55,940 bases of DNA, from positions 1 to 55,940 of IMG/VR virus record IMGVR_UViG_3300009184_005738; one strand, 5' to 3'. Made by a program: the position numbers and the translations under genes. This DNA is from a virus. Its lineage: Duplodnaviria > Caudoviricetes. The notes under the pieces were generated by a model. The model was not told where the DNA came from. It was given only the letters and a program-made list of their open reading frames with translations, and did not search any database. This document shows, piece by piece, positions 15,905-37,951 of this stretch (position 1 is the first letter of the stretch; each line of letters begins with the position of its first letter).

Positions 15905-16126
15905 CTACAAATCCGAAGATATGGCTTTGATTTCTCTAACTTCTTTTTCGGAAATGTCAAAGATTTTTGAAAGATCTTTATTAGATTTTCCTTTAAGGAA
16001 ATTCATAAGAATTGATTCAAGTCGTTTCAGTCTACTATCTAGCAGAGCTAATTCTTCAGGCTTACTGCCCTGACTTGCGGAGATCACTTTGGCTTCTATC
16101 GCGTTACTATTAACGTCACTGGTCAA
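15905..16126 (-). CDS. small HTH protein
   Basis: GKSNKDLSKIFDISEKEVREI HTH-like C-terminus. Confidence 0.55.
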   Translation of the reverse strand: MTSDVNSNAIEAKVISASQGSKPEELALLDSRLKRLESILMNFLKGKSNKDLSKIFDISEKEVREIKAISSDL

Positions 16127-19316: not shown

Positions 19317-20186
19317 CTATGCAACAGAAAAACTATTTACAATTTTGACCATAGCTTCACGGATGTCCATACCCGAGTGCTGGCCTGCGTCATTTACGAA
19401 TGCATCTAGGGTATTTTTGAAAGTAGTTTCAACTTCAAAATCGCCACCAGAGGTATTGCGCTTAGGGTCCGACCATCTAGTTTCAAGTACGTTAAGAAGA
19501 GATAGTTTTTCCCAACTTTTGAAAAAGTTAAGATGATTCTTGATACTCGTACCGCTTGATAAGGCGGAAGGGATACCTGTGCGCATACTGTATTCGATAG
19601 TATCTGATAGGTCTAGGTTCCAGCCAGAATTCCATACCATATTGTAGGCGGCGTGAATTCCGTCTGCAAACGTTTCGCATGGTTCAAAATTTTCAAAGAT
19701 AGGGTTACACAAGGTGGAGTCGTAGTAAAGGTTTAGCATAGGTAGCATGTAAACCTTATCGCCCCAAGAGTATAGGGGTTCGTTTCTGCAGTAAACCCTA
19801 ACAGTTACCGGATTATTGTAGTCGTCGAATAAGACGTAGTAGATGGTCCACGGTATAGGGAGACTAAAGGATAGTACAGACGTACTGCTATTGATATTAT
19901 CTTTTTTATCAAAAGCAATTTCCACAAATTGAACAGTTGGTGGTCTCTCGAATACTGCTATCCGCTGGTTGTCAGATATCCACCTAACAGCTGGGGGTAG
20001 TAAGCCTAGGTCTTTCCTGTCTAGATTAACCATGCTTTTATATATATCTTCGCAATTTTTTTTTGCTAAAGGTATATTAGGGCTACCTGGCCCAGACTGA
20101 AAATAACCATCAACAGTATTGTTTGAGTCGTGTATATTTAAGTTAATTTTCATAGTAGGACAATTCCTTTTGTTGTCAAGATACAA
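19317..20186 (-). CDS. prokaryotic E2-like protein (Prok-E2 family D-like), paralogue 3
   Basis: LLPPAVRW...ERPP...LPIPWT...LPMLNLYYDSTLC. Confidence 0.62.
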   Translation of the reverse strand: MYLDNKRNCPTMKINLNIHDSNNTVDGYFQSGPGSPNIPLAKKNCEDIYKSMVNLDRKDLGLLPPAVRWISDNQRIAVFERPPTVQFVEIAFDKKDNINSSTSVLSFSLPIPWTIYYVLFDDYNNPVTVRVYCRNEPLYSWGDKVYMLPMLNLYYDSTLCNPIFENFEPCETFADGIHAAYNMVWNSGWNLDLSDTIEYSMRTGIPSALSSGTSIKNHLNFFKSWEKLSLLNVLETRWSDPKRNTSGGDFEVETTFKNTLDAFVNDAGQHSGMDIREAMVKIVNSFSVA

Positions 20187-21090
20187 TCTCTTTAAAGAAT
20201 CGACTTAGAGTGTTTTTATTTACGGCAACTTGTTGTGCATTTCCACTTAGGTTTAATGAATTACACTGCTGCCCAACTGTCCTTACTTCTTGAGAAAAAC
20301 TTTCACTCATGACATCTTCCATAGACATTTTTGACCACTCAGAAAGGTAGCTGTCTGCAGTGTCACATCTTCCGCGCGCTTCGTACGGGAGTAGTATGTC
20401 CCCACTTAGGTAGGTTAGGTCGTTGTTAAACCATCCAGTCCAGAAACCGTTTATCGAATCAAGTAGATAGGCACCAAGACTGGCATATGATGTTCTGGGC
20501 ATGTTGTAAAGAACATCGCCCCAGCAGATTTTTGCGTCCTCATAAAGGTTTGGTAGCGGCAAGCTATACAGCATGTCGTCCATACTTGTCACCATTGTTG
20601 GTCTGGAATAAGCTTGGCAAGATGAAATGTGAACCAAATCTTTATCTAATTCGAAAAACCACAAAGTCCACGGCACGTTGAGGGTATATTCTGCCCGGAA
20701 CAGTTCACGGTTTTCTTCTTCCCAGCCGCATTGGCATTCATCAAGTTCATTAGAGTAACATTCGTCACACCTGTCTGATTCTTCTGCATGGTCGCCGTGT
20801 ATGTCTATGTACTTGACGGTTACCACGAATGGTGGTCGTTCAACCATGATGTGCATCATGTCCTTGGATACCCATCTAGTCACTGGAGGTAAGATATCTG
20901 TATCTTGGGAAGCTTTAGAGAAAAATTTCTTCGCAACTAAGCTAACGTCTAATTGCTCTATTTCAAAGATCCCATACGAGAATGAAGCCCTGGACGTAGT
21001 AATACTTACGGACTGAGCGATTGAGTCGACCGGCTCTTCTTCTAGTACTTTATTGGCTATTGATTGAATTTGATAATCTGTTGTTGTCAT
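20176..21090 (-). CDS. prokaryotic E2-like protein (Prok-E2 family D-like), paralogue 2
   Basis: ILPPVTRW...ERPP...LNVPWT...LPLPNLYEDAKICWG...FWTGWFNNDL. Confidence 0.72.
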   Translation of the reverse strand: MTTTDYQIQSIANKVLEEEPVDSIAQSVSITTSRASFSYGIFEIEQLDVSLVAKKFFSKASQDTDILPPVTRWVSKDMMHIMVERPPFVVTVKYIDIHGDHAEESDRCDECYSNELDECQCGWEEENRELFRAEYTLNVPWTLWFFELDKDLVHISSCQAYSRPTMVTSMDDMLYSLPLPNLYEDAKICWGDVLYNMPRTSYASLGAYLLDSINGFWTGWFNNDLTYLSGDILLPYEARGRCDTADSYLSEWSKMSMEDVMSESFSQEVRTVGQQCNSLNLSGNAQQVAVNKNTLSRFFKEIVS

Positions 21091-23226: not shown

Positions 23227-23536
23227 CTGACGTGTACTCCAGGGTTTCTAGCATTATCGTTCTTAGTTCCATTACTTTTTCTTGGAAGGACTTTTGTCTT
23301 TCTTCGTTTTCGTATTGGAGTTGGAACAGTAGGGCTTCTAGGAGGACGGCTTGTTCTGCAAAGCCTACGGTAACTGTTGCTAGTTGTTGTTCTAATGCTT
23401 CTACTTTTGAGCTGTGTAGCTCTAGTTCTTCTGTAAATAGTCTTTGGTGGGATCTGAATGATCCGTCTACTTTGGAGTAGAATAGGTCGAGGTCTTCTTG
23501 GGAGACTGACCTTGGGATTTGTGATTCTTCTGTCAT
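23162..23536 (-). CDS. hypothetical coiled-coil protein
   Basis: coupled ORF. Confidence 0.6.
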   Translation of the reverse strand: MTEESQIPRSVSQEDLDLFYSKVDGSFRSHQRLFTEELELHSSKVEALEQQLATVTVGFAEQAVLLEALLFQLQYENEERQKSFQEKVMELRTIMLETLEYTSDVMENGNPEPEKPMENVAPEN

Positions 23537-24144
23537 TATTCAACAAACCATTCTAAGTTTGAGTTGGCATTTGAAGCAAGGCATAGGTCTACTCTGTATG
23601 ATATTTCAGCCATTTCTACTCTTGTTATTTTGATTGAGTCGGTAGATAGTGGGCTTGACATGTCTGGTAGGAATGCGCCGGAGGATGATTTGTTTGCTTT
23701 GAAGTGTCCGCATTTGAATATGAATGCACTGTTGTCGTATTCGGTTTCGCCTTTGCGCCAGTAGTGTGATTTGAATATGCGTGATATTGGTTTTCCGTCT
23801 GGTCCTGTTCCTCCACCGTAGAAGGCTACGCCTTCGTCGGTTGGTACACCGAGTTTTGCGTTGGTTTTGTACAGGTTTTTTCCGTATCCTGCGGTTACTG
23901 CTTTGCAGTAGGTGGCGAATAGGATTGAGTCGACGAATGTTTCGGTGTGTGATTTGAGGCTTGCGTCTGAACCGGTTGCGCCTATGTCTATTCTGAATTT
24001 ACCTATTTTGAGCAGTGGTTTGATTGATACGAATCCACTGGCTGATGGTGATTTAAACCATTTTTTGTATAGGTCAGGAATAATTTTTTTGTCGGCGCTT
24101 GAATCGCTTGCGATTATTGGTTCTTGGTCTAAGTTTAGGTCCAT
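23536..24144 (-). CDS. hypothetical protein
   Basis: AAGGA RBS; directly downstream of the AAA ATPase. Confidence 0.65.
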   Translation of the reverse strand: MDLNLDQEPIIASDSSADKKIIPDLYKKWFKSPSASGFVSIKPLLKIGKFRIDIGATGSDASLKSHTETFVDSILFATYCKAVTAGYGKNLYKTNAKLGVPTDEGVAFYGGGTGPDGKPISRIFKSHYWRKGETEYDNSAFIFKCGHFKANKSSSGAFLPDMSSPLSTDSIKITRVEMAEISYRVDLCLASNANSNLEWFVE

Positions 24145-24152
24145 TGATTTCC

Positions 24153-25730
24153 TTAGAATGATTGCATTACTGGTTTACGTTTTTTGCTGGTTGGTCCGTT
24201 GAGTAGGGTTTGTGCGTCTGCGAGTTGGGCGGAACTGGCCCAGTCCCATTCGGCTATTGCCCTTTGGTACATTTCGACGACTGTGGCACGATGTTTTACC
24301 CACATGCGGTTTTGTTGTGTTGGGATGAGTGTTTCTACATCTTCTTGGCTGATCTTGCGCTTTTCTCTGACAGAGATTTTGAAACGGGCTTCACGGATGA
24401 GGGCTTTTATTTCTGCACCCGTGAAGGTTTCCGTCATTGCAGCAAGTGTGTCTAGGTTGAAGCGTTCTGCATCTTTGTCTAAGTGTATGTTGAAGATGCT
24501 GAGACGTTCTTCGAATGATGGTAGGCCGACAAACATGATTTTGTCGAACCTGTCGGCACGGAGCATTTCTGGGCTGATGTGCCCAATCTGATTTGCTGCG
24601 GCCATGAGTAGTACGTTGTCTGGAAGTTCTTGTATGCCGGTTAGGAATTCACCGTGAACACGAGAGGTTGTACCTCCGTCGCCTTGGTAGTCTCCGGCGG
24701 AGAGGTCACGTCCGAGCTCGTCCATCCATACAACTAGTGGAGCCATTGCCCGTAGTTGTGCGAATGCTGAGCGCATACGCTTTTCTGATTCACCGATAAA
24801 CTTATCCATCATCTGGCTTACGCCAAATTTGGCAAGGTCAAGATTTAGTGTGCTGGCTGTGGCTTCGCAGATGGCTGATTTTCCAGTACCTGGCACACCA
24901 ACGAACAGTATGCGCCTTAGCGGCATGATGTCTAGTTCTGCAGCTTCTTGAGGGTTGTTCCATGTCCATACAACATTCTCGATTAGCTCTTTGGCAAGGT
25001 CGAGTCCGCCTATTTGGTCTAGGGAGATTGATGGCCGGCGGATTTCTAGGATCCCACCTTCTTTGACGCGATCCATCTTCCACTTAGCTATGTAAGCTGG
25101 GTCTACAGTCTTTTCGGTGTTGAGGCTCATTAGCGATACTTGGATGAACTCTTGCTCGGTTAGCCCTAGGCCAGCTTTTACGATTTGGCTGAGGTCTATG
25201 TTCCCTGAGTCTAGGATTGGGTCTTGCGAGAACATGGAGGCGCATAGGTGTGCGAGTTCTGCTTCGGATGGGTATCCGGGGGAGGACACAACGAAGTGCT
25301 TGATGAGTTCTTTGGGCACTTCTTCTGTGCACGACAGTAGGATAAACTGTGGGCCTATTTTGGTTTTATCGTTTTGGATTACCGCAGAGCGATATTTATT
25401 GTAGACTCCACTGAATAACCCTATAAGGTTTTCTGCTATTATATGGCCATTTTCTAAGATGATGCAAGCATTCTTGTCGATGACATACTGAATAGCAACT
25501 TCTAAATTGCTTGTTGGAACTTCCCTGAGGTCGCCTTCTTCTGCGGAACCCATCTCAATGAGAACGGTTTTCCAAGAATTGTCCCGCCAAACACTTAATC
25601 CTTCGAAAGGGTCTAGGTGGTAAACTTCATTGACACTTGTGCTGCAAATGATTTCCGTGACCCGTTCGGGCTCGACGGTGTTGACCCATATTAGCGGGGA
25701 GCCAATACGGAGGTGTTGGATGAGTTCCAT
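24153..25730 (-). CDS. AAA+ ATPase (Ycf46/Cdc48-like, degenerate N-terminal AAA domain)
   Basis: IGGLD, Walker A GVPGTGKS, pore loop KFIGESE, Walker B VWMDE, Arg finger LRADRFD, FTGAEI. Confidence 0.9.
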   Translation of the reverse strand: MELIQHLRIGSPLIWVNTVEPERVTEIICSTSVNEVYHLDPFEGLSVWRDNSWKTVLIEMGSAEEGDLREVPTSNLEVAIQYVIDKNACIILENGHIIAENLIGLFSGVYNKYRSAVIQNDKTKIGPQFILLSCTEEVPKELIKHFVVSSPGYPSEAELAHLCASMFSQDPILDSGNIDLSQIVKAGLGLTEQEFIQVSLMSLNTEKTVDPAYIAKWKMDRVKEGGILEIRRPSISLDQIGGLDLAKELIENVVWTWNNPQEAAELDIMPLRRILFVGVPGTGKSAICEATASTLNLDLAKFGVSQMMDKFIGESEKRMRSAFAQLRAMAPLVVWMDELGRDLSAGDYQGDGGTTSRVHGEFLTGIQELPDNVLLMAAANQIGHISPEMLRADRFDKIMFVGLPSFEERLSIFNIHLDKDAERFNLDTLAAMTETFTGAEIKALIREARFKISVREKRKISQEDVETLIPTQQNRMWVKHRATVVEMYQRAIAEWDWASSAQLADAQTLLNGPTSKKRKPVMQSF

Positions 25731-25741
25731 TTTTTTAAATC

Positions 25742-25972
25742 CTAATAGTTAAGAGTAACGTTGATTTCTATATTGGAGTCTTCAGCCCAGTTAAGTAGAT
25801 TAACTATTTGGCTTGGAGTGGATGCTCGGTAGTATCGGATGAATCGATAGCTACTTTCATTATAGAATATTCCCGGTGGGAACCTAGTACTGTCCTGCGC
25901 TACTGACATGATGGACACAGAAACTGCGCCAATCATAGTTGAGTAAAGTCCGTAATAACTTACATTATCCAT
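25742..25972 (-). CDS. hypothetical protein
   Basis: coupled ORF. Confidence 0.5.
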   Translation of the reverse strand: MDNVSYYGLYSTMIGAVSVSIMSVAQDSTRFPPGIFYNESSYRFIRYYRASTPSQIVNLLNWAEDSNIEINVTLNY

Positions 25973-26492
25973 ACGAATAATCGCTTTCTTGATGCCAGCC
26001 TTTTTCTTCTCGCGAAGAAGCGATTTGTATCGCTTGGACCTTATCTAATAGTTTTCTTGCAGATTCAGAAGCTATTCTGGCTGCTACTTCTTGCGCTTCT
26101 GCTAATTCGATTACTGCTTCAAGAGTTGACATTTCTATAAACTCTTTTTCTGCAACCGCTATTGCATTAGCTTCTCGTTCTTGTGCGTTTTTGGCTGAAC
26201 CGCCAAGTGCAGCTTTGTACTTGCGTTTGTATCTTCCTTCAGCAAGTTTGTAGTGGGCTCTTGCGATACCACCAAATCTCGCGATCCTGCCATAGTTGTT
26301 GGATGTTCTTGCAACCATGGACATCAAAGAACCTACAGTTAAGTCTATATCATCAGCTGTTGGCAATTCTATAAATGATGAACCACTACTGCCTGGATCA
26401 GCTACTATAAGTGATATAATTTGCTCTAACTCTGGTCCAAGAATTTCTATTAAAAGCGTTTCCGCTTGATGTACTGGGCTCACTGTAGACAT
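25965..26492 (-). CDS. helical coiled-coil protein
   Basis: AAGGAG RBS before MSTVS; Ala/Glu-rich helices. Confidence 0.6.
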   Translation of the reverse strand: MSTVSPVHQAETLLIEILGPELEQIISLIVADPGSSGSSFIELPTADDIDLTVGSLMSMVARTSNNYGRIARFGGIARAHYKLAEGRYKRKYKAALGGSAKNAQEREANAIAVAEKEFIEMSTLEAVIELAEAQEVAARIASESARKLLDKVQAIQIASSREEKGWHQESDYSYG

Positions 26493-26569
26493 GGTTCTCC
26501 TTGAGTATAGTCCCAGCTTACACTCACGGAGCATAGAGTGCAAGCCGGGACGCATACTAGTTACCTAGT

Positions 26570-26878
26570 TCAGGCGAAAAGCTCGTTGACTTCAACGGTT
26601 GAAAGCTTGTAGATGCTGTCGGTCTCAGTGTCGAGAACTCGAGTACCATCGGTGCGGCCTGGGTGGAACGACTTGATAGCCGATTCACGGTTAGGTGCTT
26701 CTACCCAGAAAGTTCCAGTGATCTCGAAAACGCTAGGTTCAGCGTTACGGGTCCAGTTTGCCTTCATTGCTGCAGCGGACGGAGCAGTGATCTTGAGCGC
26801 CTTAGCGACATCCTGACTGCTCTTGCCCTTTGCGAACATGGCGTGAGCCTTCTCACGCATTGCGTTAGTTAGTGCCAT
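26570..26878 (-). CDS. HTH-containing protein
   Basis: AAGGAG RBS; GKSSQDVAKALKIT HTH; more GC-rich codon usage. Confidence 0.6.
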   Translation of the reverse strand: MALTNAMREKAHAMFAKGKSSQDVAKALKITAPSAAAMKANWTRNAEPSVFEITGTFWVEAPNRESAIKSFHPGRTDGTRVLDTETDSIYKLSTVEVNELFA

Positions 26879-26895
26879 TACTTTTCTCCTTGAAA

Positions 26896-27948
26896 TTATT
26901 TGTTGTTATTTATGCTTTGGTTATCGTAGAAGTTAGAGTTTGCGTTGTTTAAGAGAAGAACCATCTCGGATAGTGAATACTTTACCCATGATTTAGGGTC
27001 ATTATTTGGAAGTATACTAAACCAATACGATTCCATTGGCGTAGAGGTAGAATTACCCCTGTAATGCACAATGCCTCTTGGTATAACGGCCATGTTTGAT
27101 TCAATGTGGGTTTTAACTAGACAGGACCAACTCATCCATGCGCTGTGCAACATATTGTTATTGCAATACAGCAAATAGTGCCTAAGATGATCGTAGTCTA
27201 GGTAACCTGTGTCGTGCAAGTCTAATAGGTTTTCGGGGACTATGTTCCATAATGATTGTCTGGAGCTCCAGTTGTCCCTAAAAGACATCGCAGTATTTGT
27301 TAATCTGAACCAGCAGCCTTTTGATGTCAGTTTATTCTTTGTTGATTTTATTAATTGAATCGTTTCTTCACCGAATATTGACATTAAGTCGGCATGCATG
27401 TAACTAAGTGAGCCAGGAGCTAGTGCCGAAACAGCTTCTGTTAAGTCGCCATTCCAGGTTTTAGCTTCTGGCCATTTCTTCTCAATTTGCTGATAGGTTG
27501 AAAGTTGTTTTTCTACTAGCAGCATTTGAGTTTTGCTTACGGATTTAATATCCATAAGTTCTTGTGGCTCATTGGATAACTCTGGTAATAATACACAGAA
27601 TCCAGAGCCGAGATCTGTATCTATAGAAGATTTCTCGTTAAAAGATATTTGTCTTTTAATCGGGATGTTGTATGAAGATTCTTCTATGTAGTCTGCTGGG
27701 GTTTCCATCCCAACGAGGTCTAAACCCAGTTTGGTTACAACCCATAGGTCGGCTCGCCTGCCACGTTTAGCTCTTGGGTGGTGATCTTGTTTTCTCTTAA
27801 TAAGCTTTTCAACTAATAACTCTTTACGAGAATGCAAAAATTCATGTTGTGTGGTTAATTTTGCGCGACGAAGATCGGTTGAAGTTACAGTCTTATGTTC
27901 GGCAATATAGTGCAGCATTTTGGTGGCACTATCAGAAACTTTTATCAT
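26896..27948 (-). CDS. winged-helix N-terminus plus uncharacterised C-terminal domain
   Basis: LLVEKLIKR...RGRRADLWVVT wHTH wing. Confidence 0.55.
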   Translation of the reverse strand: MIKVSDSATKMLHYIAEHKTVTSTDLRRAKLTTQHEFLHSRKELLVEKLIKRKQDHHPRAKRGRRADLWVVTKLGLDLVGMETPADYIEESSYNIPIKRQISFNEKSSIDTDLGSGFCVLLPELSNEPQELMDIKSVSKTQMLLVEKQLSTYQQIEKKWPEAKTWNGDLTEAVSALAPGSLSYMHADLMSIFGEETIQLIKSTKNKLTSKGCWFRLTNTAMSFRDNWSSRQSLWNIVPENLLDLHDTGYLDYDHLRHYLLYCNNNMLHSAWMSWSCLVKTHIESNMAVIPRGIVHYRGNSTSTPMESYWFSILPNNDPKSWVKYSLSEMVLLLNNANSNFYDNQSINNNK

Positions 27949-28028: not shown

Positions 28029-28274
28029 TCAGCCCTTTTCGCCTGCTCGACGATGGAACTCGACGTTGTCGCCGGGCTGAATGACATAAGAGTCATCCAA
28101 CTTCTCTTTACCCTTGTAGGCGTTAGCGTCTGTTGGGATTCCCCACATTGCGCTGAACTGTCCACGAAGATCTGACACACTCTTGCCTGCGTGGCTACCT
28201 GGGTTGTTGTATACGCCGTAACGGATCTGGGCAGACCCATTGCTTTCGGCGCTAGACGATGATGCTTGCTGCAT
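28029..28274 (-). CDS. ubiquitin-like beta-grasp protein (Ubl)
   Basis: 81 aa, GKSVSDLR...YVIQPGDNVEF...AGEKG with C-terminal Gly; adjacent to ThiF. Confidence 0.82.
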   Translation of the reverse strand: MQQASSSSAESNGSAQIRYGVYNNPGSHAGKSVSDLRGQFSAMWGIPTDANAYKGKEKLDDSYVIQPGDNVEFHRRAGEKG

Positions 28275-28275
28275 T

Positions 28276-29058
28276 TTAAGCTCCTTGATATACTATATCG
28301 TTAATGTTAATACTGCGATCAAAACTTTGGGCTAGACCGGCTTCCAAGTCAAAGAAATACTCAGAATTAAAAGCCGGATCTTTACCTTCAACAATGACCA
28401 TGTTGAACCGCGCTAGCAATGCTGCTGTTACGGCCATATTCGTGGCTAGAAGTTGCGTCCCTCCATCTAGTTGGGCTCTTTCTTGACACGAAAGTTCACC
28501 AGGGTTACGGTCAGGAGGATCAACATATTCCTCATGCCATACCGAAGGATGATCTACCAGCTCTACACCATCACGCTTTGCGTAGTGATAGGTGGAGCCA
28601 AAATATCTTTCATCATTACCGCCAAGGAATACATCAACATCATTAAGCTCACTAGCAGCATCAATGAGTTGCTTCCTTGCTTTGAAGTTATCTACTACCG
28701 CAAAGATTACGTCGCCCTCAGCTATTAGATCGCAAGCAGCGATCTTACCTGCAGATGGCGTTCCGTCTTCTTCCTTGTCTTCCTTACCATTTTCTGCCAC
28801 TTTGTCAACAACCCAGTAGGGCATTGGTATGATAAAGGTTTTATCAAATTGCGGTATCAATTCGTTAGCTAAAACTTCTGCTTTATTTCCAACACCATTA
28901 AAGAATTGGCGTTGTTTGTTTTTAGCTTCGAAATTATCGCCATCAACAATTAGCAGGGCCGAACCTGGCATGGTCCATTCTAGTGTCATAGCAATAGAGC
29001 GAGACAGTAAAGAACCTATACCGCCTGCCCCAACGATGACTACTCTTTTTTCTTGCAT
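28276..29058 (-). CDS. ThiF/E1-like Ubl-activating enzyme
   Basis: VVIVGAGGIG, DGDNFE.KN..RQ, AVVDNFKAR; candidate catalytic Cys in ELSCQE. Confidence 0.9.
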   Translation of the reverse strand: MQEKRVVIVGAGGIGSLLSRSIAMTLEWTMPGSALLIVDGDNFEAKNKQRQFFNGVGNKAEVLANELIPQFDKTFIIPMPYWVVDKVAENGKEDKEEDGTPSAGKIAACDLIAEGDVIFAVVDNFKARKQLIDAASELNDVDVFLGGNDERYFGSTYHYAKRDGVELVDHPSVWHEEYVDPPDRNPGELSCQERAQLDGGTQLLATNMAVTAALLARFNMVIVEGKDPAFNSEYFFDLEAGLAQSFDRSININDIVYQGA

Positions 29059-29763
29059 TTAAAATTCCTTGTAATCAATAAACAGTTTTTCGCTGTTGGT
29101 GGAAGATTTCTCAAAAGTATTTTCAACGACTAAGTGATCGTAGTCGAAGGATTCGCAAGTGATTATTTTTTCGCCTATAACACCGTGATACAGAAAATCT
29201 GCTACAGATTTCCTTATCTCAGGACATTTCTCGGTATAATAATTGACGCAATCTTTACAGAGACTGTATTGGTCGTCTTCATTGTACAAACTATCCCAAA
29301 TACCGGGAGGTACATCTGACGTATCTTCCCATGATAATGGCTTCACACAAAGGCATGCTGCCCATGTTTGGTCGCAGCAGATCATCCAAGGATCGTCATC
29401 AGAATAGAATGCGTCAATTTTTTGCACTGTTTCGGGGCTTGCCGAAGCATAGAAATCATCCCAATCTGTTTCCACAAATTTAACTCCACAGTCCTCACAG
29501 CTAGAGTCTAAATACTCTATATAGCTGATACAGTTGGGGTTAAGGCATTCAATGACTAAGGCTTCTTGCTTTTCTATCAATGTTTCATTGACGGAAATAT
29601 CAAGATTACCTAGCGGGTGGTAGCAATATGGGCATGAACTGTACTTAGCTTCTGTTTCGTCCAACTCTTGGTAACATTCATAACAGAATGCCGCAGATGT
29701 TGAACGTTCAGCTATTTTCCCGCAACACCACCTACTCCGCCTGCACCGTGGAAAAGTTCGCAT
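29059..29763 (-). CDS. Cys-rich multi-zinc-finger ORF; probably translated as a -1 frameshift extension of the JAB gene
   Basis: many CxxC pairs; weak independent start; in the -1 frame of the GGGAAAA heptamer at 29715-29721. Confidence 0.65.
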   Translation of the reverse strand: MRTFPRCRRSRWCCGKIAERSTSAAFCYECYQELDETEAKYSSCPYCYHPLGNLDISVNETLIEKQEALVIECLNPNCISYIEYLDSSCEDCGVKFVETDWDDFYASASPETVQKIDAFYSDDDPWMICCDQTWAACLCVKPLSWEDTSDVPPGIWDSLYNEDDQYSLCKDCVNYYTEKCPEIRKSVADFLYHGVIGEKIITCESFDYDHLVVENTFEKSSTNSEKLFIDYKEF

Positions 29764-30971
29764 TCTTCTTTTTCGCCGCGACGCCAGATGTAAACATCCC
29801 TAGAAACACCCATTTCTATATCGATCTCTGTAGAGTAAAGACCTTTGCTCTTTCGCTCAATACAGATATCATTTAGTGTTTCACCGGGTAGCATTATGTA
29901 ATTGTGGCAGCCGAGGCAACGTCGTTTTTCGTAGTCAGCTTTGATAAACTTAGTTAGACAAAATGGACATTCTTTTTCTTTGTCTTCTTTAAGTTCTGCA
30001 ACAATAGTATTCTTATTTGGATCTGGAAAACCTGCTGGAAGCTTTACTGAAACGCTTCCGTAGCTAGTGGAATACTTATTGCCGGAGCTTGTGCTGGGAG
30101 CATAGCTCGTAGAGCCATACCCATAACTATAGCCAGAGGGGGTAACTACTGGGGCTTTTTTGGATACCTTTTCCATCCACTGATCTACAACTGGTGAAGG
30201 TTCTGGTTTTGGAAAAGATTCAAATACTTGGCTTGGTTCCATAGTGAAAACTCCGCCAGGTGTTTGAAGCTCAATATAGTATTCTGTGGCGTTGTTATTG
30301 TGGCTTTTGCGCCAACCATAAGTTATATGAATTCCCGGAAAATCTGCTTGATCTTTATGATCAGTTCCGGAAGCAAAGGCTGACATTGCCGGATGAGAAT
30401 GTGCGGATCCTACGACATAAACATGCTCTTCTTTTTGTTGAGCAATAGATTCGTGATCATACAAGCAATCTGCGGCAGTATTTACTTGATCGGGAACTAA
30501 GATGCCCCAGCCTTCGCTTGGGTTATCTTTTTCAAGGTAGTCTGGATCGTAAGTAAGCAGGACTATAGACTCGGTGCCATGCTTAGCTTCTACTGCCCTA
30601 AAGAAATCGTCCATCATTTGAACATGGCTATAAGGGATGGCCGGAAGCTTGTAATTGGCTTCGACAGTCATTTGATCTAGGCCGAGTTCGTCAGGGTCTG
30701 CTACGGTTACAGACCTAGATATAATGGTATTAACAACCTTGAAAATTGTAGGCCTCTCTGAGGCTTTAGTCACTTTACCATCATTGTGATTATACTTCTC
30801 TACGCACATAACGTAGTAGAAACTATAACCATGAGCTTCGATGTGGCTACAAATTTTGTCTATATCACCAACAAAGCATGGTAAACCGTTAGGCAGATCA
30901 AACTGCTTAATTTGATCTAGCGGTATTAGTTCCACTATATCTTCTTCTATTACATCTTTTTCTGTGGTCAT
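29712..30971 (-). CDS. JAB/MPN+ metallo-isopeptidase with C-terminal zinc ribbon
   Basis: HGTE (Glu), GSAHSHPAMSAFASGTD (HxH...S..D); C-terminal CPFC...CLGC. Confidence 0.88.
   Translation of the reverse strand: MTTEKDVIEEDIVELIPLDQIKQFDLPNGLPCFVGDIDKICSHIEAHGYSFYYVMCVEKYNHNDGKVTKASERPTIFKVVNTIISRSVTVADPDELGLDQMTVEANYKLPAIPYSHVQMMDDFFRAVEAKHGTESIVLLTYDPDYLEKDNPSEGWGILVPDQVNTAADCLYDHESIAQQKEEHVYVVGSAHSHPAMSAFASGTDHKDQADFPGIHITYGWRKSHNNNATEYYIELQTPGGVFTMEPSQVFESFPKPEPSPVVDQWMEKVSKKAPVVTPSGYSYGYGSTSYAPSTSSGNKYSTSYGSVSVKLPAGFPDPNKNTIVAELKEDKEKECPFCLTKFIKADYEKRRCLGCHNYIMLPGETLNDICIERKSKGLYSTEIDIEMGVSRDVYIWRRGEKEECELFHGAGGVGGVAGK
29715..29721 (-). other. -1 ribosomal frameshift slippery site G-GGA-AAA
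   Basis: X XXY YYZ heptamer in frame immediately before the JAB TAG stop; -1 frame open for 218 more codons. Confidence 0.7.
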
Positions 30972-31017
30972 TGTTGTGCTCCAGATTAGATTAGAATCTT
31001 ATCGATTCTTCAATTAT

Positions 31018-32355
31018 TTAAACGGACTGAGCAGTCGCTGCGTAATTAGTCGAACAACTAACGCATGAGTTATTTTCTTCTAATATCGTAAATTCGTTGC
31101 ATTTAACGCAATAACTTGCATTTGCGCAGTCAGTGCAGTGGAAGTTAAAAATTCCTTCATACTGATAATAATACAAATAGGAAAAGTGCTTTTTACTTAA
31201 ACAAGAAGCGCATGTTTCGTACTCTACTTCAAAACAACTAGTGCATACATTGCCGTCGTCGGTTTCTATGCAGTGCTCGTAACCATAAAAACCTTTACAT
31301 GCATAACAGCAAAATGACGGGCCAGCTATGGGAATTATTGGTTCGTTTTGATTTAATGGTTGTACTTCTTTATGTTTTGTATTCGTAAATGCTTTTTTGA
31401 TATTACTCAGAACGTCTTTGCCGCTTGGATTCTCCAGATCAGATCTAGAAAAAGATTGGTAAGATTTTATTGGTTCTGAATCAGTATAATAAGCTTTATA
31501 TTTTCCGTCCATAGCGGAACCAATGGTGAGGTGCTCTCCATTTTCATGGTGTTTACCTTGAGAGTCAAGTCCTTCCACCATTACCGGCAGCCAGATTGAG
31601 GGATCTAGTGTCCATTGGAATCCTTCAGTTTCGCTTTTTTGTTCCCAGTCTTCTGGGTTCCAAAGGTAAGAATATGATTGGAACTCTTCATCGTTTTCGA
31701 CGTTGTAAGTTCCTTTATATTCGCAAAATTCTTTTGTATAGCATTCGTGGTAAAACCTTGGGCCATCAGTTTCGCTCATGTTAGAGTCGTTATAGGCTTC
31801 TGTTCCACCAGATCGTTCTAAAAGGTGAGATATTTTGTGCCCTATATCTAGTTTAGATATGGAAGGTTGATTATGGTACAAGCATATCCATCCAACTCCT
31901 ACACCACCACCAGCGTGGCTTTGGCTATAGCCTTTACAGTTTAGGTTTGGAAGATTTACGTGGAATAATATTTGATTTTTGCTTGTTATTGGACTAATAC
32001 TATAGAAGTGTCTTGCACCATAAAATTCATTGTTAAGGAAATCTCCAATGACAATTCTATATGGCATTGCTAGATCGTAATGGATTGCTTCTTGATCGCC
32101 TTCGTTTTTGCCCCAAATAACCCTGTATATTTCTGGCTTGTGCTGAAATACAACCTGCATTCTATCGAAAGATTTGCGTATAGATAGAACACCAGAGCCG
32201 TCTAAGGGTAACAATCCCGTTTCGAAAAAGGATACTTCCGACAGGGACAAGAAGAAGTCGCTAAGGTCAACTTCTTCTATTTTAGACTGATTTCCGGCAT
32301 TGATTGTTAATTGAGCTTTTTGTTCATTCAGCAATAAATAAGAATCAATACTCAT
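31018..32355 (-). CDS. prokaryotic E2-like protein with C-terminal zinc-finger array, paralogue 1
   Basis: FETGLLP...DLAMPY...LFHVNLPNLN...GWICL; eight or more C-terminal CxxC motifs; in the operon with JAB, E1 and Ubl. Confidence 0.68.
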   Translation of the reverse strand: MSIDSYLLLNEQKAQLTINAGNQSKIEEVDLSDFFLSLSEVSFFETGLLPLDGSGVLSIRKSFDRMQVVFQHKPEIYRVIWGKNEGDQEAIHYDLAMPYRIVIGDFLNNEFYGARHFYSISPITSKNQILFHVNLPNLNCKGYSQSHAGGGVGVGWICLYHNQPSISKLDIGHKISHLLERSGGTEAYNDSNMSETDGPRFYHECYTKEFCEYKGTYNVENDEEFQSYSYLWNPEDWEQKSETEGFQWTLDPSIWLPVMVEGLDSQGKHHENGEHLTIGSAMDGKYKAYYTDSEPIKSYQSFSRSDLENPSGKDVLSNIKKAFTNTKHKEVQPLNQNEPIIPIAGPSFCCYACKGFYGYEHCIETDDGNVCTSCFEVEYETCASCLSKKHFSYLYYYQYEGIFNFHCTDCANASYCVKCNEFTILEENNSCVSCSTNYAATAQSV

Positions 32356-33079: not shown

Positions 33080-33580
33080 CTATAGTTTTAGTTCAGCTAA
33101 TCGTGTTTCAATTTTTTCTACACGATTTATTTTAATGTCGCTTATTTCATTCTCATTAATCCCATTTTTTTCCATAAAAGAATCATGCAATAATTCAATG
33201 GTTTCAGAGATTATATATTCGCTTCGATCATTCCACTGTACCCAGACATTTCCATACTCTGAAATAATATCTTTTGTTACAGCTTGAATTTCTCTAGCAC
33301 TGTACCCGCCCCACACCCCATATTCTTCTCGGTTCACCAAAGCTAGCCTAAGGCATTGCTTTACTGTAGGGCATGTGGTGCAAACGGTAGAAGCTACACC
33401 TAGCTCCTGGACGTTGCTCCTGGGATACATAACAGATACTTCAAGGTCCCAGCAGGAAGCCAATGGTGCCCAGCTTTTTTTGTGGGATTGAAGATATCTA
33501 GAATAGTGCTCCACCTCTTTGTATGGTGGAAGAAGATCAACTACTGGTTCTTCCTCAGTAGTTGCTTGAGTGTTCTCCAT
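33080..33580 (-). CDS. whiB: WhiB-family Fe-S transcription regulator
   Basis: C...CxxCPxxxxC...EEYGVWGG. Confidence 0.88.
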   Translation of the reverse strand: MENTQATTEEEPVVDLLPPYKEVEHYSRYLQSHKKSWAPLASCWDLEVSVMYPRSNVQELGVASTVCTTCPTVKQCLRLALVNREEYGVWGGYSAREIQAVTKDIISEYGNVWVQWNDRSEYIISETIELLHDSFMEKNGINENEISDIKINRVEKIETRLAELKL

Positions 33581-35179: not shown

Positions 35180-35695
35180 CTAAAGCTCATGCCAATAGAA
35201 ATTTTTGCTTGTGACATCGTACGCAAAAAGGAGTCTATTGGCTCCAAAATGGTCAACTATAATACTAGCAATTAATCGATTAGAATCAATTGAGTTCTTT
35301 AGATTAATTAAGGCATCCATAAGATCTTCATCTAATATGCACTGCTTATACATTTCATGGATTGGAACAAATTTATAAAAATTACTTGCATTAATTTCTT
35401 GATCTACAGGCATTTTGTCAGCCCAGGAATCTTCAAGAATTGAAGGGTCAGTTTTTGCAAGTATAGAGTTTATGTAAGGGCGACCATGTTCGTCGGTATC
35501 TTCGTTGTAATCTGCTTCGATCATTATTCCTAACCCAAGGAACATTGGATGGTTGGCGTGAATCTGTTCGCACTCAAGTGCCAAACTATCCTTGAGGTTT
35601 AACGCCATATCATTAAGGGAATTGTTGAGACCGTTAATGTAGCTAGATAGCGTCCTTTTTAGCTTGGGAGTTGAACTTATTGTGTTGGTTGACAT
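35180..35695 (-). CDS. hypothetical protein
   Basis: coupled to the DUF6915-like gene. Confidence 0.6.
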   Translation of the reverse strand: MSTNTISSTPKLKRTLSSYINGLNNSLNDMALNLKDSLALECEQIHANHPMFLGLGIMIEADYNEDTDEHGRPYINSILAKTDPSILEDSWADKMPVDQEINASNFYKFVPIHEMYKQCILDEDLMDALINLKNSIDSNRLIASIIVDHFGANRLLFAYDVTSKNFYWHEL

Positions 35696-36045
35696 TAGTC
35701 GACTACCTCCATAATTTTATGATTTTTTACTTTTCCGCCAAGCCAATCATACATTGGCATATCGCCAAGGTAATCTTGTACGGTTGGGATAAAACCTAAA
35801 TCTTCCAAGATATGGTTTTCACATATATCTCTTACTTGGTAATCTTTACCATTAGAGTTTGTGCGGTAGATTCCGAAGAGCTCTTGGGCTATATAAGCGC
35901 CAAAACTACTGTGAAGTATTGCGCGGTGCCTCATGTCTGGAACATGCGCTTTAGATGAATCCAGAAATTCATGTATATCTATATAGTCATCTATAGTTCC
36001 GCTAAATTTAACTACAGACAATTTTGCGTGAACTAGTGGTTTCAT
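35695..36045 (-). CDS. DUF6915-like His-rich protein
   Basis: P..HA..S..KF.G...Y..IH.FLDSSK....RHRA.LH..FG...E.HI.EDLG.IPT..D. Confidence 0.7.
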   Translation of the reverse strand: MKPLVHAKLSVVKFSGTIDDYIDIHEFLDSSKAHVPDMRHRAILHSSFGAYIAQELFGIYRTNSNGKDYQVRDICENHILEDLGFIPTVQDYLGDMPMYDWLGGKVKNHKIMEVVD

Positions 36046-37554: not shown

Positions 37555-37560
37555 AGTTAA

Positions 37561-37951
37561 GTGGAGCTGGGGTGAATCGAACCCCCGTCTTTCGGACGAG
37601 TTTCTATTGTGATACAACTATTCCCGCTAAACGGCGGGTCGCTAGGGCCGATCGGCTCATTTGAGCTTCACGTATTCCACCAGTTATTCTTTCATAACAG
37701 TCAAGTAGTCTTTCCTATTAGCCCACCTGTCTATCCAGGTTGTCCGCCTAGTTTCCGTTGATAGGCACTAGGCAAGCCCCGGGACACTAGTTAGACTAGT
37801 GCACCCTCCTCAGCGAGAAGAGTGGCCATAGCGGCATCCCAATCGACGATGTTAGTATCGGCGTTTATTTTTTGTGCCCGCTTTAACGTCTCTGAGCTAG
37901 ACGAGTTGCACGCCAGAACTTCTGACCCCGAAATCGAAACCAGTCAGCCCC
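37561..37951 (-). ncRNA. ssrA: tmRNA (tag ADTNIVDWDAAMATLLAEEGALV)
   Basis: 5' GGGGCTGACTGGTTTCGA; 3' GGGGGTTCGATTCACCCCAGCTCCA; G3-U70; resume context ATAAAC-GCC. Confidence 0.93.

What the first reader, a model, noticed from the sequence alone, without database searches (positions are those of the whole stretch)
28029..32355. Phage-encoded complete ubiquitin-like conjugation operon (E2-like, JAB, Zn-finger ORF, E1, Ubl)
Seen in sequence: five co-oriented genes encode an E2-like protein (LPNLN...GWICL plus a CxxC array), a JAB peptidase (E...HSH...S..D), a Cys-rich ORF, a ThiF/E1 enzyme (GAGGIG, candidate catalytic Cys in LSCQE) and an 81-aa beta-grasp protein ending AGEKG. Established knowledge: ThiF + Prok-E2_D + Prok-JAB + a Ubl ending GxKG is the PRTRC-type prokaryotic ubiquitin-like cassette, and related bacterial systems such as Bil and CBASS Cap2/Cap3 act in anti-phage defence. 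Inference: here the phage itself carries the machinery, which may tag host or phage proteins for host takeover or counter-defence. The zinc-finger arrays could act as E3-like substrate adaptors. No sulfur-carrier or cofactor-biosynthesis genes are nearby.
Basis: partly seen in the sequence, partly recalled or inferred. Interest (0 to 1): 0.92.

Follow-up and report, generated by a model that had tools for sequence, protein, structure and literature searches.

The report
Jumbo-phage ubiquitin-like protein tagging cassette
A large freshwater phage carries its own set of genes for activating, attaching and removing a small ubiquitin-like protein tag, a distant and expanded relative of an uncharacterised bacterial cassette, which suggests that phages as well as their hosts use ubiquitin-style tagging.

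Summary
Window 28029-32355 (minus strand) holds five tightly packed genes. They encode a ThiF-type E1 (Pfam 1.5e-10; every adenylation residue and Cys191 invariant in 28 of 28 relatives) and a JAMM peptidase with an intact E...HxHx7SxxD motif. There is also an 81-aa ThiS-like protein whose ...RRAGEKG end is invariant (36 of 36) and is terminal in 33 of 36. A Cys-rich ORF turns out to be the split-off C-terminal module of the peptidase. The fifth gene is a 445-aa E2-like protein.

The E2 call is the weakest link. It rests on a chain of profile matches to Prok-E2_D/PRTRC_B-like proteins and on weak fold matches (Z up to 4.5), not on a clean UBC hit.

New here:
- Two further E2-like paralogs lie 8-9 kb downstream.
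- The cassette is syntenic in 46 of 49 IMG/VR jumbo-phage loci and almost absent from cellular genomes.
- Three cultured Bacillus jumbo phages carry a homologous cassette with a polyubiquitin-like precursor that scores above cut-off as PRTRC_C.
- Seven of eight relatives' records (not the window's clade) also encode an HslV/proteasome-like peptidase in the same block.

It is a remote relative of the PRTRC/'6d' system, not a member by curated cut-offs. Targets and biological role are unknown.

The parts
31018..32355 (-). E2-like protein (445 aa). It has a small N-terminal beta/alpha unit, then a UBC-like core (about residues 28-262) with LPN135-137, C140, GWIC158LYH161. A conserved helical region follows up to about residue 325, then a LIM-like array of six CxxC (residues 347-440).
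   Evidence: No Pfam, NCBIfam, PHROG or PADLOC hit. 366 homologs at E <= 1e-3. hhalign against the g304/g289 family: prob 93.6, E 2.1e-7. Atlas: 28 of 30 named hits are Prok-E2_D clusters, score 0.93. AF2 models pLDDT 88.8 and 81.1. VIA-align: 14 of 50 and 21 of 50 rows are E2 enzymes, Z <= 4.5. The tail matches LIM domains in PDB at E 0.0096.
29712..30971 (-). JAMM/JAB metallopeptidase (419 aa) with an N-terminal extension, a catalytic Glu (HGTES), HSHPx7SGTD, a low-complexity linker and a CxxC...CxxC zinc ribbon.
   Evidence: Pfam Prok-JAB 3.4e-5, 24.1 bits (cut-off 25). 5 of 5 long relatives match Prok-JAB, 2 of them above cut-off. Motif conserved in alignment A5. 9 of 9 relatives hit PRTRC_A weakly.
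29059..29763 (-). Cys-rich ORF (234 aa): a zinc ribbon plus a Cys-rich domain (CC..C.C..CxxC..C..C). It is the split-off counterpart of the C-terminal module of the long JAB proteins.
   Evidence: In alignment A5 its C-terminal half aligns with the C-terminal domain of the 542-590-aa JAB proteins. 34 of 36 distinct JAB proteins in the loci are long and fused; only L001 and L002 (and the window) are split. No family hit.
28276..29058 (-). Minimal ThiF/MoeB/UBA5-like E1 (260 aa): GAGGIG, DGD, N..RQ, K59, VVDNF..AR and the invariant Cys191 (GELSCQER).
   Evidence: Pfam ThiF 1.5e-10, 41.1 bits (cut-off 28.1). Invariant residues in 28 of 28. Best PDB match by profile is UBA5, 6.5e-4. PRTRC_ThiF 21 bits against 144.75. 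Predicted complex with the Ubl passes.
28029..28274 (-). Ubiquitin-like modifier (81 aa), ThiS/MoaD-like, with a free C-terminal Gly (...EFHRRAGEKG).
   Evidence: No family hit. Atlas nearest clusters are ThiS, score 0.95, 11 of 30 hits. Tail invariant in 36 of 36 and terminal in 33 of 36. Residues 74-81 are placed in the E1 nucleotide pocket in the predicted complex, score 0.65 against best control 0.35. hhalign to a Bacillus-phage PRTRC_C repeat: E 6.5e-4, prob 27.5.
20176..21090 (-). Second E2-like paralog (g304, 304 aa) with LPLPN181LYEDAKIC189WG.
   Evidence: Pfam Prok-E2_D 2.1e-4, 21.5 bits (cut-off 25). N181 and C189 are invariant in 32 of 32 family members. The family matches the E2-like protein of the operon and the Bacillus phage E2-like gp214 (prob 93.6, E 2.1e-7).
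19317..20186 (-). Third E2-like paralog (g289, 289 aa) with LPMLNLYYDSTLC.
   Evidence: Member of alignment A3, 21% identical to g304, sharing the invariant Asn and Cys. tblastn finds g304 and g289 at the same places in some loci.
24153..25730 (-). Classic-clade AAA+ ATPase (Cdc48/PAN/FtsH-like). It is a neighbour; its link to the cassette is unproven.
   Evidence: Pfam AAA 8e-25; NCBIfam CDC48 4.1e-38. It directly follows the Ubl gene in 47 of 49 loci. However, homologs exist in cultured phages that lack the cassette (29% identity, E 2e-38 to Rhizobium phage L338C).
32368..32766 (-). Conserved upstream neighbour (132 aa), function unknown.
   Evidence: Syntenic directly upstream of the E2-like gene in most loci. 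Only weak coiled-coil-type Pfam hits in relatives.
23536..24144 (-). Conserved neighbour after the AAA+ gene (202 aa), function unknown. Most relatives end in ...DWY[DEN]x.
   Evidence: Syntenic in 48 of 49 loci (L001 ends before this position). No family hit. C-terminal tails listed.

Best explanation
This is a working, phage-encoded ubiquitin-like conjugation and deconjugation cassette. It is a remote, expanded relative of the bacterial PRTRC / Iyer-2006 'type 6d' system.

Proposed cycle:
1. The 81-aa ThiS-like Ubl is made with a ready C-terminal Gly.
2. The minimal E1 binds its tail in the ATP pocket, adenylates Gly81 and takes it onto Cys191.
3. The Ubl passes to the conserved Cys of an E2-like protein: C158 of the operon's E2, or the Cys of the two downstream paralogs.
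4. The E2 transfers it to lysines of target proteins.
5. The variable Zn-finger tails of the E2s probably choose the targets.
6. The JAMM peptidase, with its Cys-rich Zn module (split off in this phage), trims the rare extended precursors and removes the tag.

Shown here: the identity and conservation of the parts, phage restriction, and E1-Ubl docking in silico.
Inferred: thioester transfer, protein targets, adaptor role. The genes sit in the replication/early block, so the most likely use is to modify host or phage proteins during infection.
For: - E1: Pfam ThiF above cut-off. All adenylation residues and C191 are invariant in 28 of 28.
- Ubl: nearest Atlas clusters are ThiS (0.95). The tail is invariant in 36 of 36 and terminal in 33 of 36. 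The three exceptions carry 1-11 extra residues, and three loci carry 2 extra residues, which is what a processing peptidase would remove.
- E1 with Ubl: predicted complex score 0.65 (runs 0.65, 0.65, 0.49) against best control 0.35. That mark was reached by 116 of 157 solved complexes and 2 of 215 mismatched pairs. The runs agree in at least 80% of contacts and the partner pLDDT is at least 79. Ubl residues 74-81 touch E1 residues 10, 12-15 and 121-125. E1-Ubl is a textbook pair, so the pass may reflect likeness to solved MoeB-MoaD-type complexes.
- JAB: intact JAMM motif. Prok-JAB in 5 of 5 long relatives, 2 above cut-off.
- E2: hhalign of the operon's E2 family against the g304/g289 family gives prob 93.6, E 2.1e-7. 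That family against Bacillus phage gp214 gives prob 93.6, E 2.1e-7 including the Cys region. Prok-E2_D is sub-threshold in 4 of 32 members. Atlas gives 28 of 30 Prok-E2_D clusters. E2 enzymes make up 21 of 50 VIA rows for the core model. The Cys is invariant in 53 of 53 and 32 of 32.
- Synteny: E2-JAB-E1-Ubl in the same order in 46 of 49 IMG/VR loci; the other 3 are cut at a contig end.
- Kinship with a recognisable system: Bacillus phage poly-Ubl scores 74.6 and 61 bits as PRTRC_C (cut-off 45.95), and its E1 scores 103-107 bits as PRTRC_ThiF.
- No Rhodanese or ATP_bind_3 in 5 of 5 near-complete relatives.
Against: - The E2 fold is not cleanly shown. Foldseek found no match at E <= 1e-3 for either model. 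The best VIA Z values are 4.1 and 4.5, below the Z 7-8 the tool reports as typical best for models without a clear match.
- No member reaches the Prok-E2_D cut-off. hhalign of the operon's E2 family against Bacillus gp214 directly gave only prob 1.9.
- The Ubl fold was never searched as a structure, and its profile hits nothing in PDB (best E 0.25). Its end is KG, not the GG of most modifiers.
- All 49 loci belong to one phage lineage, so conserved order is partly inherited order.
- No biochemical data exist for this or for PRTRC (literature searches).
- RNA evidence is thin. Short metatranscriptome contigs from runs of two studies cover parts of E1, the Ubl-E1 junction and the E2 gene, but DNA carry-over cannot be excluded.
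- MoaE, ThiG and cysteine desulfurase families were not searched.
Confidence: 0.72

Rival explanations
1. E2-independent tagging. The Ubl, E1 and JAB form a real activation/removal trio that conjugates without an E2, as recalled for archaeal SAMP, Urm1 and Thermus TtuB. On this reading the three 'E2-like' proteins are scaffolds, RWD-like adaptors or unrelated enzymes that only resemble E2s locally.
For: - No clean UBC fold match.
- All Prok-E2_D hits are below cut-off.
- RWD and kinetochore RWD-like chains and FANCL appear among the VIA rows at the same Z as E2s.
- The conserved core of the 445-aa protein (about 325 aa) is twice the size of a UBC domain, with a second invariant block (E186, Y188, N189, D190) of unknown role.
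Against: - The Cys in the G-x-[IL]-C context after the [LH]PN-like motif is invariant in all three paralog groups (53 of 53 and 32 of 32). Inactive RWD-type domains, as described in Iyer 2006 section 14 (read in full), have lost that Cys.
- The His three residues after C158 (at least 90% conserved) fits the 'downstream histidine' that the same section describes for the 6d-type E2s.
Confidence: 0.12
2. Sulfur carrier. The Ubl is thiocarboxylated by the E1 and donates sulfur to a phage tRNA or nucleotide modification. On this reading JAB and the E2-like proteins are accessory.
For: - The Ubl's nearest clusters are ThiS.
- The E1 hits ThiF/MoeB models as well as it hits any others.
- The phage carries 7 tRNAs and a tmRNA.
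Against: - No Rhodanese (0 of 5) and no PP-loop ATP_bind_3 (0 of 5) in near-complete relatives, although the same searches ring in 13 and 14 of 14 control genomes.
- No such family among the window ORFs scanned.
- The E1 has no rhodanese domain (260 aa).
- The tail is KG, not GG.
- A JAMM peptidase, three Cys-bearing E2-like proteins and poly-Ubl precursors in the Bacillus phages make sense for conjugation, not for sulfur transfer.
Confidence: 0.05
3. Virion-assembly role. The Ubl is attached to, or is itself, a structural component of the particle. The cassette would then serve capsid or tail maturation rather than host manipulation.
For: - The poly-Ubl of Bacillus phage vB_BceM_WH1 is annotated 'virion structural protein gp211' and lies next to another 'virion structural protein'. 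This is the depositors' label; its basis was not seen, and no paper was found.
- Iyer 2006 describes a Ubl plus JAB in lambdoid tail-assembly clusters (passages).
Against: - In the window and its 49 relatives the cassette sits among replication and nucleotide-metabolism genes on the same strand (RNase H, WhiB, SSB, UDG), not in a structural module.
- The tail-fibre and endolysin genes are on the other strand, about 17 kb away.
Confidence: 0.1

Closest known systems
PRTRC system (NCBIfam TIGR03735-03738) = 'type 6d' operon of Iyer, Burroughs and Aravind 2006 (PMC1779556, section 14 read in full)
   Same: A separate JAB with an N-terminal extension, a ThiF-type E1 without rhodanese, a small Ubl with a C-terminal Gly, and an E2-like protein that lacks the classical HPN His but has a conserved Cys and a downstream His. 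Relatives' JAB proteins (9 of 9) and E1s (3 of 3) hit PRTRC_A and PRTRC_ThiF weakly, and PRTRC_ThiF is the top E1 hit in 2 of those 3.
   Different: Every score is far below the curated cut-offs. The Ubl and all three E2-like groups have no PRTRC hit. No ParB-type family was found among the window ORFs scanned. It sits on a roughly 200-kb phage rather than a plasmid or ICE, has three E2 paralogs with variable Zn-finger tails, and has a Cys-rich Zn module on the JAB.
Cassette of Bacillus jumbo phages vB_BceM_WH1 (gp211-gp216), Edson and vB_BauM_KLEB27-3 (gp199-gp194)
   Same: Phage-borne Ubl, E2-like, JAB and E1. JAB hhalign prob 95.7, E 9.3e-9. E2-like prob 93.6 against the g304/g289 family. 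E1 about 25% identical. The Ubl units end in AG-x-KG, as in the window.
   Different: The Ubl is a head-to-tail array of 5 or 4 repeats of 57 aa, with a 7-aa cap in KLEB27-3. There is one E2-like gene, no Zn-finger arrays were seen, and the Ubl gene comes first rather than last. The cassette is much closer to PRTRC (PRTRC_C above cut-off). The operon's 445-aa E2 family itself does not match gp214 (prob 1.9).
Bacterial anti-phage Ubl systems: CBASS Cap2/Cap3, Bil, Bub (abstracts and search listings seen; Bil details recalled)
   Same: The E1 / E2 / JAB-type peptidase / Ubl logic in prokaryotes. The Bub Ubl is also released from a precursor by a peptidase (abstract and section headings).
   Different: Those systems are host defences. 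Here the carrier is the phage. PADLOC gives only weak E1 hits to the E1-E2 fusion models (best 8.2e-5, 19.6 bits) and nothing for the other four proteins. Here E1 and E2 are separate, and Cys (not Ser) is the conserved residue.
ThiS-ThiF / MoaD-MoeB sulfur-carrier pairs
   Same: The Ubl is ThiS-like. The E1 has the ThiF fold and a crossover-loop Cys. The tail-in-pocket geometry was predicted.
   Different: No sulfurtransferase partners. There is a JAMM peptidase and E2-like proteins. The tail is KG.
Ubl-unfoldase-protease pathways (eukaryotic and archaeal Ub/SAMP with Cdc48/PAN and proteasome; actinobacterial Pup-Mpa-proteasome; recalled)
   Same: A Cdc48/PAN-like AAA+ gene directly follows the Ubl gene in 47 of 49 loci. 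Seven of eight relatives' records encode an HslV/proteasome-beta-like peptidase 10-16 kb downstream.
   Different: The AAA+ also occurs in cultured phages without the cassette. The peptidase is missing from the window and its closest relative. No C-terminal Hb-Y-X docking motif is seen on the AAA+. No functional link has been tested.

Membership tests
PRTRC system (NCBIfam TIGR03735-03738) | E1 scores above the PRTRC_ThiF cut-off (144.75 bits) | tested here: not met
   Window E1 21.1 bits. Three relatives 25.9-34 bits. Bacillus phage E1s 103-107 bits, also below cut-off.
PRTRC system (NCBIfam TIGR03735-03738) | JAB protein scores above the PRTRC_A cut-off (101.8 bits) | tested here: not met
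   Window JAB has no hit at E <= 0.01. 9 of 9 long relatives score 15.5-23.5 bits.
PRTRC system (NCBIfam TIGR03735-03738) | Ubl matches PRTRC_C and E2 matches PRTRC_B | tested here: not met
   Window Ubl and E2-like protein: no family. Ubl relatives 0 of 3, E2-like relatives 0 of 4, g304/g289 relatives 0 of 8. By contrast the Bacillus phage poly-Ubls score 74.6 and 61 bits against a cut-off of 45.95.
PRTRC system (NCBIfam TIGR03735-03738) | ParB-related partner protein in the cassette (feature recalled from the system's name) | tested here: not met
   No ParB-type Pfam family among the window ORFs scanned at E <= 0.01 or 0.001. Not searched as a family across the relatives' genomes.
E2 / UBC-like superfamily (Prok-E2_D branch) | UBC-like fold (helix, beta-meander, active-site loop, C-terminal helices) | tested here: inconclusive
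   Core model pLDDT 81.1. 21 of 50 VIA rows are E2 enzymes with 113-140 residues aligned, Z 3.2-4.4, rmsd 4.1-6.5 A. 14 of 50 rows are E2s for the full model. Foldseek found nothing at E <= 1e-3. The sheet has six strands, not four.
E2 / UBC-like superfamily (Prok-E2_D branch) | Conserved catalytic Cys after an [HL]PN-type motif | tested here: met
   LPN135-137 and GWIC158L. C158 is invariant in 53 of 53, and GW.CLY occurs in 118 of 120. The paralog family has N181 and C189 invariant in 32 of 32.
E2 / UBC-like superfamily (Prok-E2_D branch) | Pfam PF14460 at or above the gathering score (25 bits) | tested here: not met
   The operon's E2 has no hit. g304 scores 21.5 bits. 4 of 32 family members hit at E <= 0.01, none above cut-off. 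Genome-wide in 5 relatives the best is 17.1 bits.
JAMM/MPN+ metallopeptidases (Prok-JAB) | E ... HxHx7SxxD zinc site | tested here: met
   HGTES and HSHPAMSAFASGTD in the window, conserved in the 24 JAB-bearing rows of A5. Window Prok-JAB 24.1 bits against 25. Two of five relatives score 27.3 and 28.8 bits.
E1 / ThiF-MoeB adenylyltransferases | ThiF domain with the nucleotide-binding Gly motif, Arg finger, Mg-binding Asp, and a conserved Cys for a thioester | tested here: met
   Pfam ThiF 41.1 bits against 28.1. G10, G12, G13, G15, R50, D123 and C191 are invariant in 28 of 28. Thioester chemistry itself cannot be tested with these tools.
Ubiquitin-like beta-grasp modifiers (ThiS/MoaD-like) | Beta-grasp fold | tested here: inconclusive
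   No structure search was run on the Ubl. Atlas nearest clusters are ThiS, 0.95. Partner pLDDT 80-83 in the complex. The profile finds nothing in PDB. No Pfam or NCBIfam hit.
Ubiquitin-like beta-grasp modifiers (ThiS/MoaD-like) | Exposed, conserved C-terminal Gly that enters the E1 active site | tested here: met
   G81 is invariant in 36 of 36 and terminal in 33 of 36. Residues 74-81 contact E1 residues 10, 12-15 and 121-125 in the predicted complex, 0.65 against control 0.35 (in silico only).

The most novel reading that the evidence does not exclude
This jumbo-phage lineage carries a self-contained ubiquitin-proteasome-like pathway in one co-directional block. It comprises a Ubl, an E1, three E2s with built-in Zn-finger target selectors, a JAMM deubiquitinase and a Cdc48/PAN-like AAA+ unfoldase next to the Ubl gene. 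In 7 of 8 relatives' records there is also an HslV/proteasome-beta-like peptidase. The phage would use the pathway to mark chosen host (or defence) proteins and destroy them. The window's own clade would have lost the peptidase and would feed a host protease instead.
Probability: 0.13. Interest if true: 0.95.

Novelty: new variant of a known kind. Interest (0 to 1): 0.74.

Why it matters
All experimentally studied prokaryotic ubiquitin-like conjugation systems (CBASS Cap2/3, Bil, Bub) are host weapons against phages. A conserved, complete and expanded cassette that is nearly confined to phages suggests the same chemistry is also used from the viral side. It occurs in 49 IMG/VR loci and had one full-length hit in a scan of one genome for each of 185,579 species.

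Several features point to selectable targets: multiple E2 paralogs with swappable Zn-finger tails, a peptidase with its own Zn module, and poly-Ubl precursors in Bacillus phages.

The link found here to three cultured Bacillus jumbo phages makes the question directly testable at the bench. It would also give the first functional handle on the PRTRC/6d family, for which I found no experimental work.

Tried and rejected
- Foldseek against PDB with the full E2-like model and with its core gave no match at E <= 1e-3.
- Profile searches of the E2-like family and the Ubl family against PDB sequences gave only a LIM-like hit for the Zn tail (0.0096) and nothing for the cores. A single long JAB found nothing. 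The JAB profile gave only Rpn11/AMSH-type hits at E 0.09-0.9 and zinc-ribbon hits.
- blastn and tblastn of the region, the E2-like protein and the Ubl against GenBank phages: no match.
- The first IMG/VR scan with the single E2-like protein found nothing. The scan with the Ubl alignment worked.
- PADLOC: only weak E1 and IetA-type AAA hits.
- Promoter and terminator scan: counts at the level of shuffles, so not used.
- Bacillus phage gp213 (509 aa) is not E2-like.
- g202 is not similar to the gene after the AAA+ in Rhizobium phage L338C.
- ClpP: 0 of 5 relatives.
- The window ORF at 16123-16602, near where relatives have the HslV-like gene, is unrelated to it.
- C-terminal tails of the AAA+ show no Hb-Y-X motif.
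- Metatranscriptome contigs cover only a few hundred bases of the cassette, and uncovered parts say nothing.

Full report
**What is there.** Window 28029-32355 carries five co-oriented minus-strand ORFs exactly as described:
- E2-like: 31018-32355, 445 aa.
- JAB: 29712-30971, 419 aa.
- Cys-rich ORF: 29059-29763, 234 aa, overlapping the JAB gene by 52 nt.
- E1: 28276-29058, 260 aa.
- Ubl: 28029-28274, 81 aa.

The last three are nearly contiguous.

The window is a phage fragment. It is an IMG/VR record of 55,940 bases that CheckV rates 24% complete. It has a DnaE-type polymerase, primase, tail fibre and endolysin, and 7 tRNAs and a tmRNA. The cassette sits among replication-type genes on the same strand: RNase H, WhiB, SSB and UDG.

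**E1.** Pfam ThiF scores 41.1 bits, above the cut-off of 28.1. In 28 aligned relatives the residues G10, G12, G13, G15, D39, D41, N47, R50, Q51, K59, D123, N124, R128 and C191 (GELSCQER) are invariant. The adenylation site and a candidate thioester Cys are therefore intact. The nearest solved relative by profile is UBA5 (6.5e-4).

**JAB.** Prok-JAB scores 24.1 bits, just under the cut-off of 25. All 5 of 5 long relatives match, two of them above cut-off. The motif Glu ... HSHPx7SGTD is conserved.

**Ubl.** There is no family hit. The protein-atlas neighbours are ThiS clusters (0.95; 11 of 30 hits). The tail EFHRRAGEKG is invariant in 36 of 36, and the protein ends at that Gly in 33 of 36. Three further loci have two extra residues after the Gly.

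A predicted E1:Ubl complex passed. The score was 0.65 (runs 0.65, 0.65, 0.49) against a best control of 0.35. That mark was reached by 116 of 157 solved complexes and 2 of 215 mismatches. The runs agreed in at least 80% of contacts and the partner pLDDT was at least 79. Ubl residues 74-81 lay on E1 residues 10, 12-15 and 121-125. This is a textbook pair, so the pass may reflect likeness to solved MoeB-MoaD-type complexes. It shows the likeness, not binding.

**The Cys-rich ORF.** It is not a gene family of its own. In 34 of 36 distinct JAB proteins from related loci, the JAB is 542-590 aa. These long forms carry, after a low-complexity linker, a zinc ribbon and a Cys-rich C-terminal domain. 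The C-terminal half of the window's ORF aligns with that domain. Only the window, L001 and L002 have it as a separate ORF.

**The E2 candidate.** This is the weakest link.

Negative results:
- No Pfam, NCBIfam, PHROG or PADLOC hit.
- No PDB sequence hit for the core.
- No Foldseek match at E <= 1e-3 for a confident full-length model (pLDDT 88.8) or for a core-only model (residues 28-262, pLDDT 81.1).

Positive results:
- VIA-align lists E2 enzymes in 14 of 50 rows (full model) and 21 of 50 rows (core). They cover 113-140 residues, most of each UBC domain, but only at Z 3.2-4.4 and rmsd 4.1-6.5 A. That is below what the tool calls a typical best score for unmatched models.
- A search of neighbouring ORFs found a sub-threshold Prok-E2_D hit in g304 (20176-21090; 2.1e-4, 21.5 bits).
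- g304 and its neighbour g289 (19317-20186) form a family of 32 sequences with invariant Asn and Cys in ...PNxYxxGxLC. Of these 32 members, 4 hit Prok-E2_D at E <= 0.01.
- The 445-aa family matches this family by hhalign at prob 93.6, E 2.1e-7, over 110 columns ending at the LPN motif.
- The atlas places the core among Prok-E2_D clusters (28 of 30 named hits, share 14-19%, score 0.93).
- C140 and C158 are invariant in 53 of 53, and H161 is conserved in at least 90%. This fits the 'downstream histidine' that Iyer et al. 2006 describe for their type 6d E2s (section 14 read in full).

I read this as a divergent, enlarged UBC-like protein (about 80% sure). The phage then has three E2-like paralogs, not one.

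**Distribution.**
- The Ubl alignment retrieved 49 IMG/VR loci on contigs of up to 268 kb.
- In 46 of them, tblastn finds E2-JAB-E1-Ubl in the same order. The other three are cut at a contig end.
- GenBank phages have no match to the E2-like protein or the Ubl.
- A scan of one genome for each of 185,579 species gave one full-length Ubl hit, on a 22-kb MAG contig, and one 19-residue partial hit.
- Runs that hold most of the region are freshwater metagenomes.
- Short contigs from metatranscriptome runs of two studies cover parts of E1, the Ubl-E1 junction (28076-28482) and the E2 gene. This is only a hint of expression.

All 49 loci are one phage lineage, so the conserved order is partly inherited.

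**Link to known systems.** The E1 has distant relatives in two Bacillus jumbo phages, and the neighbourhood there turned out to be a homologous cassette:
- A JAB: hhalign prob 95.7, E 9.3e-9.
- An E2-like protein: prob 93.6, E 2.1e-7 against the g304/g289 family, including the Cys region. It scores only prob 1.9 against the 445-aa family.
- A head-to-tail poly-Ubl of five 57-aa repeats, each ending ...AGTKG.

A third phage, KLEB27-3, has four repeats ending ...AGVKG plus a 7-residue cap. TRF reports the WH1 array as 4.2 copies of a 171-base unit.

NCBIfam scores for the Bacillus cassette:
- Poly-Ubls as PRTRC_C: 74.6 and 61 bits, above the cut-off of 45.95.
- E1s as PRTRC_ThiF: 103-107 bits.
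- JABs as PRTRC_A: 30-33 bits.
- One E2 as PRTRC_B: 18 bits.

In the window's lineage only weak echoes remain. The JAB hits PRTRC_A in 9 of 9 relatives at 15-23 bits. The E1 hits PRTRC_ThiF in 3 of 3 at 26-34 bits. The Ubl (0 of 3) and the E2 groups (0 of 12) do not hit.

The cassette is therefore a remote relative of PRTRC / type 6d, not a member by curated thresholds.

**Neighbours.** A Cdc48/PAN-like AAA+ gene (24153-25730; CDC48 model 4.1e-38) directly follows the Ubl gene in 47 of 49 loci. In the window, L001 and L002, four extra genes are inserted between them. The same AAA+ type occurs in cultured phages that lack the cassette, so the link is unproven.

A 204-aa HslV/proteasome-beta-like protein begins MTTIVG. 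It scores 36.8 bits as Pfam Proteasome against a cut-off of 22.4, and HslV is its best PDB match at 3e-4. It lies 10-16 kb downstream of the Ubl gene on the same strand in 7 of 8 relatives' records. It was not found in the closest relative G001 or in the window.

ClpP (0 of 5), Rhodanese (0 of 5) and ATP_bind_3 (0 of 5) are absent from near-complete relatives.

**Literature.** Full-text searches found no description of a phage-encoded E1/E2/JAB/Ubl cassette and no experimental work on PRTRC.
- In the 2021 jumbo-phage survey (PMC7824862) I searched the main text for ubiquitin, JAB, ThiF, Cdc48 and proteasom and saw no such system. Its supplementary tables were not seen and may list these domains.
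- A 2026 preprint (10.64898/2026.10.01.756045, passages only) reports a PRTRC protein B in a Phocaeicola prophage as a mutational hotspot tied to a diversity-generating retroelement. That fits a target-recognition role for the E2-like component.
- The KLEB27-3 GenBank record already notes 'PRTRC_A domain' on its JAB.
- Bub was seen as abstract and outline. CBASS papers were seen as search listings. Bil is recalled.

**Verdict.** I rate it a new variant of a known kind, of high interest because the carrier is a phage and cultured relatives now exist for experiments.

Noticed in passing
L054:1754-2680 (Bacillus phage vB_BceM_WH1) and L055:3038-3745 (vB_BauM_KLEB27-3): Polyubiquitin-like genes in cultured Bacillus jumbo phages. 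They hold 5 or 4 head-to-tail repeats of 57 aa, each ending AG-x-KG, and KLEB27-3 has a 7-residue cap. Both score above cut-off as PRTRC_C. The WH1 copy is annotated 'virion structural protein'.
   Followed up: partly
L056:728-1342 (record G002); also G003-G008: An HslV/proteasome-beta-like peptidase (204 aa, starts MTTIVG; Pfam Proteasome 36.8 bits) lies 10-16 kb downstream of the Ubl gene in 7 of 8 relatives' records. It was not found in the closest relative G001 or in the window.
   Followed up: partly
window 37559-37951 (-): Phage-encoded tmRNA (Rfam RF00023, 76.6 bits, E 5e-28). ARAGORN reads an unusual 23-residue tag ending ...EEGALV. This is another protein-tagging device in the same genome.
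   Followed up: partly
window 25742-27948 (-): Four genes (350, 102, 196 and 76 aa; no family hits) are inserted between the Ubl and AAA+ genes only in the window, L001 and L002. The deepest metatranscriptome contigs of two runs lie here (26564-27534).
   Followed up: no
E2-like homologs P0001-P0120: 47 of 120 homologs end in an acidic stretch plus Pro-Phe (for example ...DDEPF). This recalls the C-terminal tip of bacterial SSB (recalled, not tested). The window's own copy ends ...ATAQSV. Lengths run from 349 to 761 aa, with 0 to 9 CxxC motifs in the tail.
   Followed up: partly
window 33080-33580 (-), 42765-43355 (-), 1881-5207 (+): WhiB (5.6e-14), an Rpf-type transglycosylase domain (6.3e-28) and a DnaE-type polymerase closest to actinophage ones point to an actinobacterial host. 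Against this, MAG labels on relatives' contigs say Cyclobacteriaceae and Flavobacterium. The host is unresolved.
   Followed up: partly
window 54082-54648 (-) and 54763-55278 (-); L003:4536-4994, L013:4808-5269: Small Peptidase_M50-like proteins (about 150-190 aa) recur in this phage lineage. In relatives, one sits three genes upstream of the E2-like gene.
   Followed up: no
window 23536-24144 (-) and relatives: The conserved 202-aa gene after the AAA+ ends in ...DWY[DEN]x in nearly all relatives. This is a conserved aromatic C-terminal tail of unknown meaning. Many long JAB proteins end in Tyr-rich acidic tails (YYD, YYE, YYN).
   Followed up: no
window 35695-36045 (-), 39695-40144 (-), 5904-6266 (+): Other annotated neighbours: DUF6915 (8.4e-37), a pyrimidine-dimer DNA glycosylase (6.5e-23) and a small IrrE/M78-like metallopeptidase domain.
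   Followed up: no
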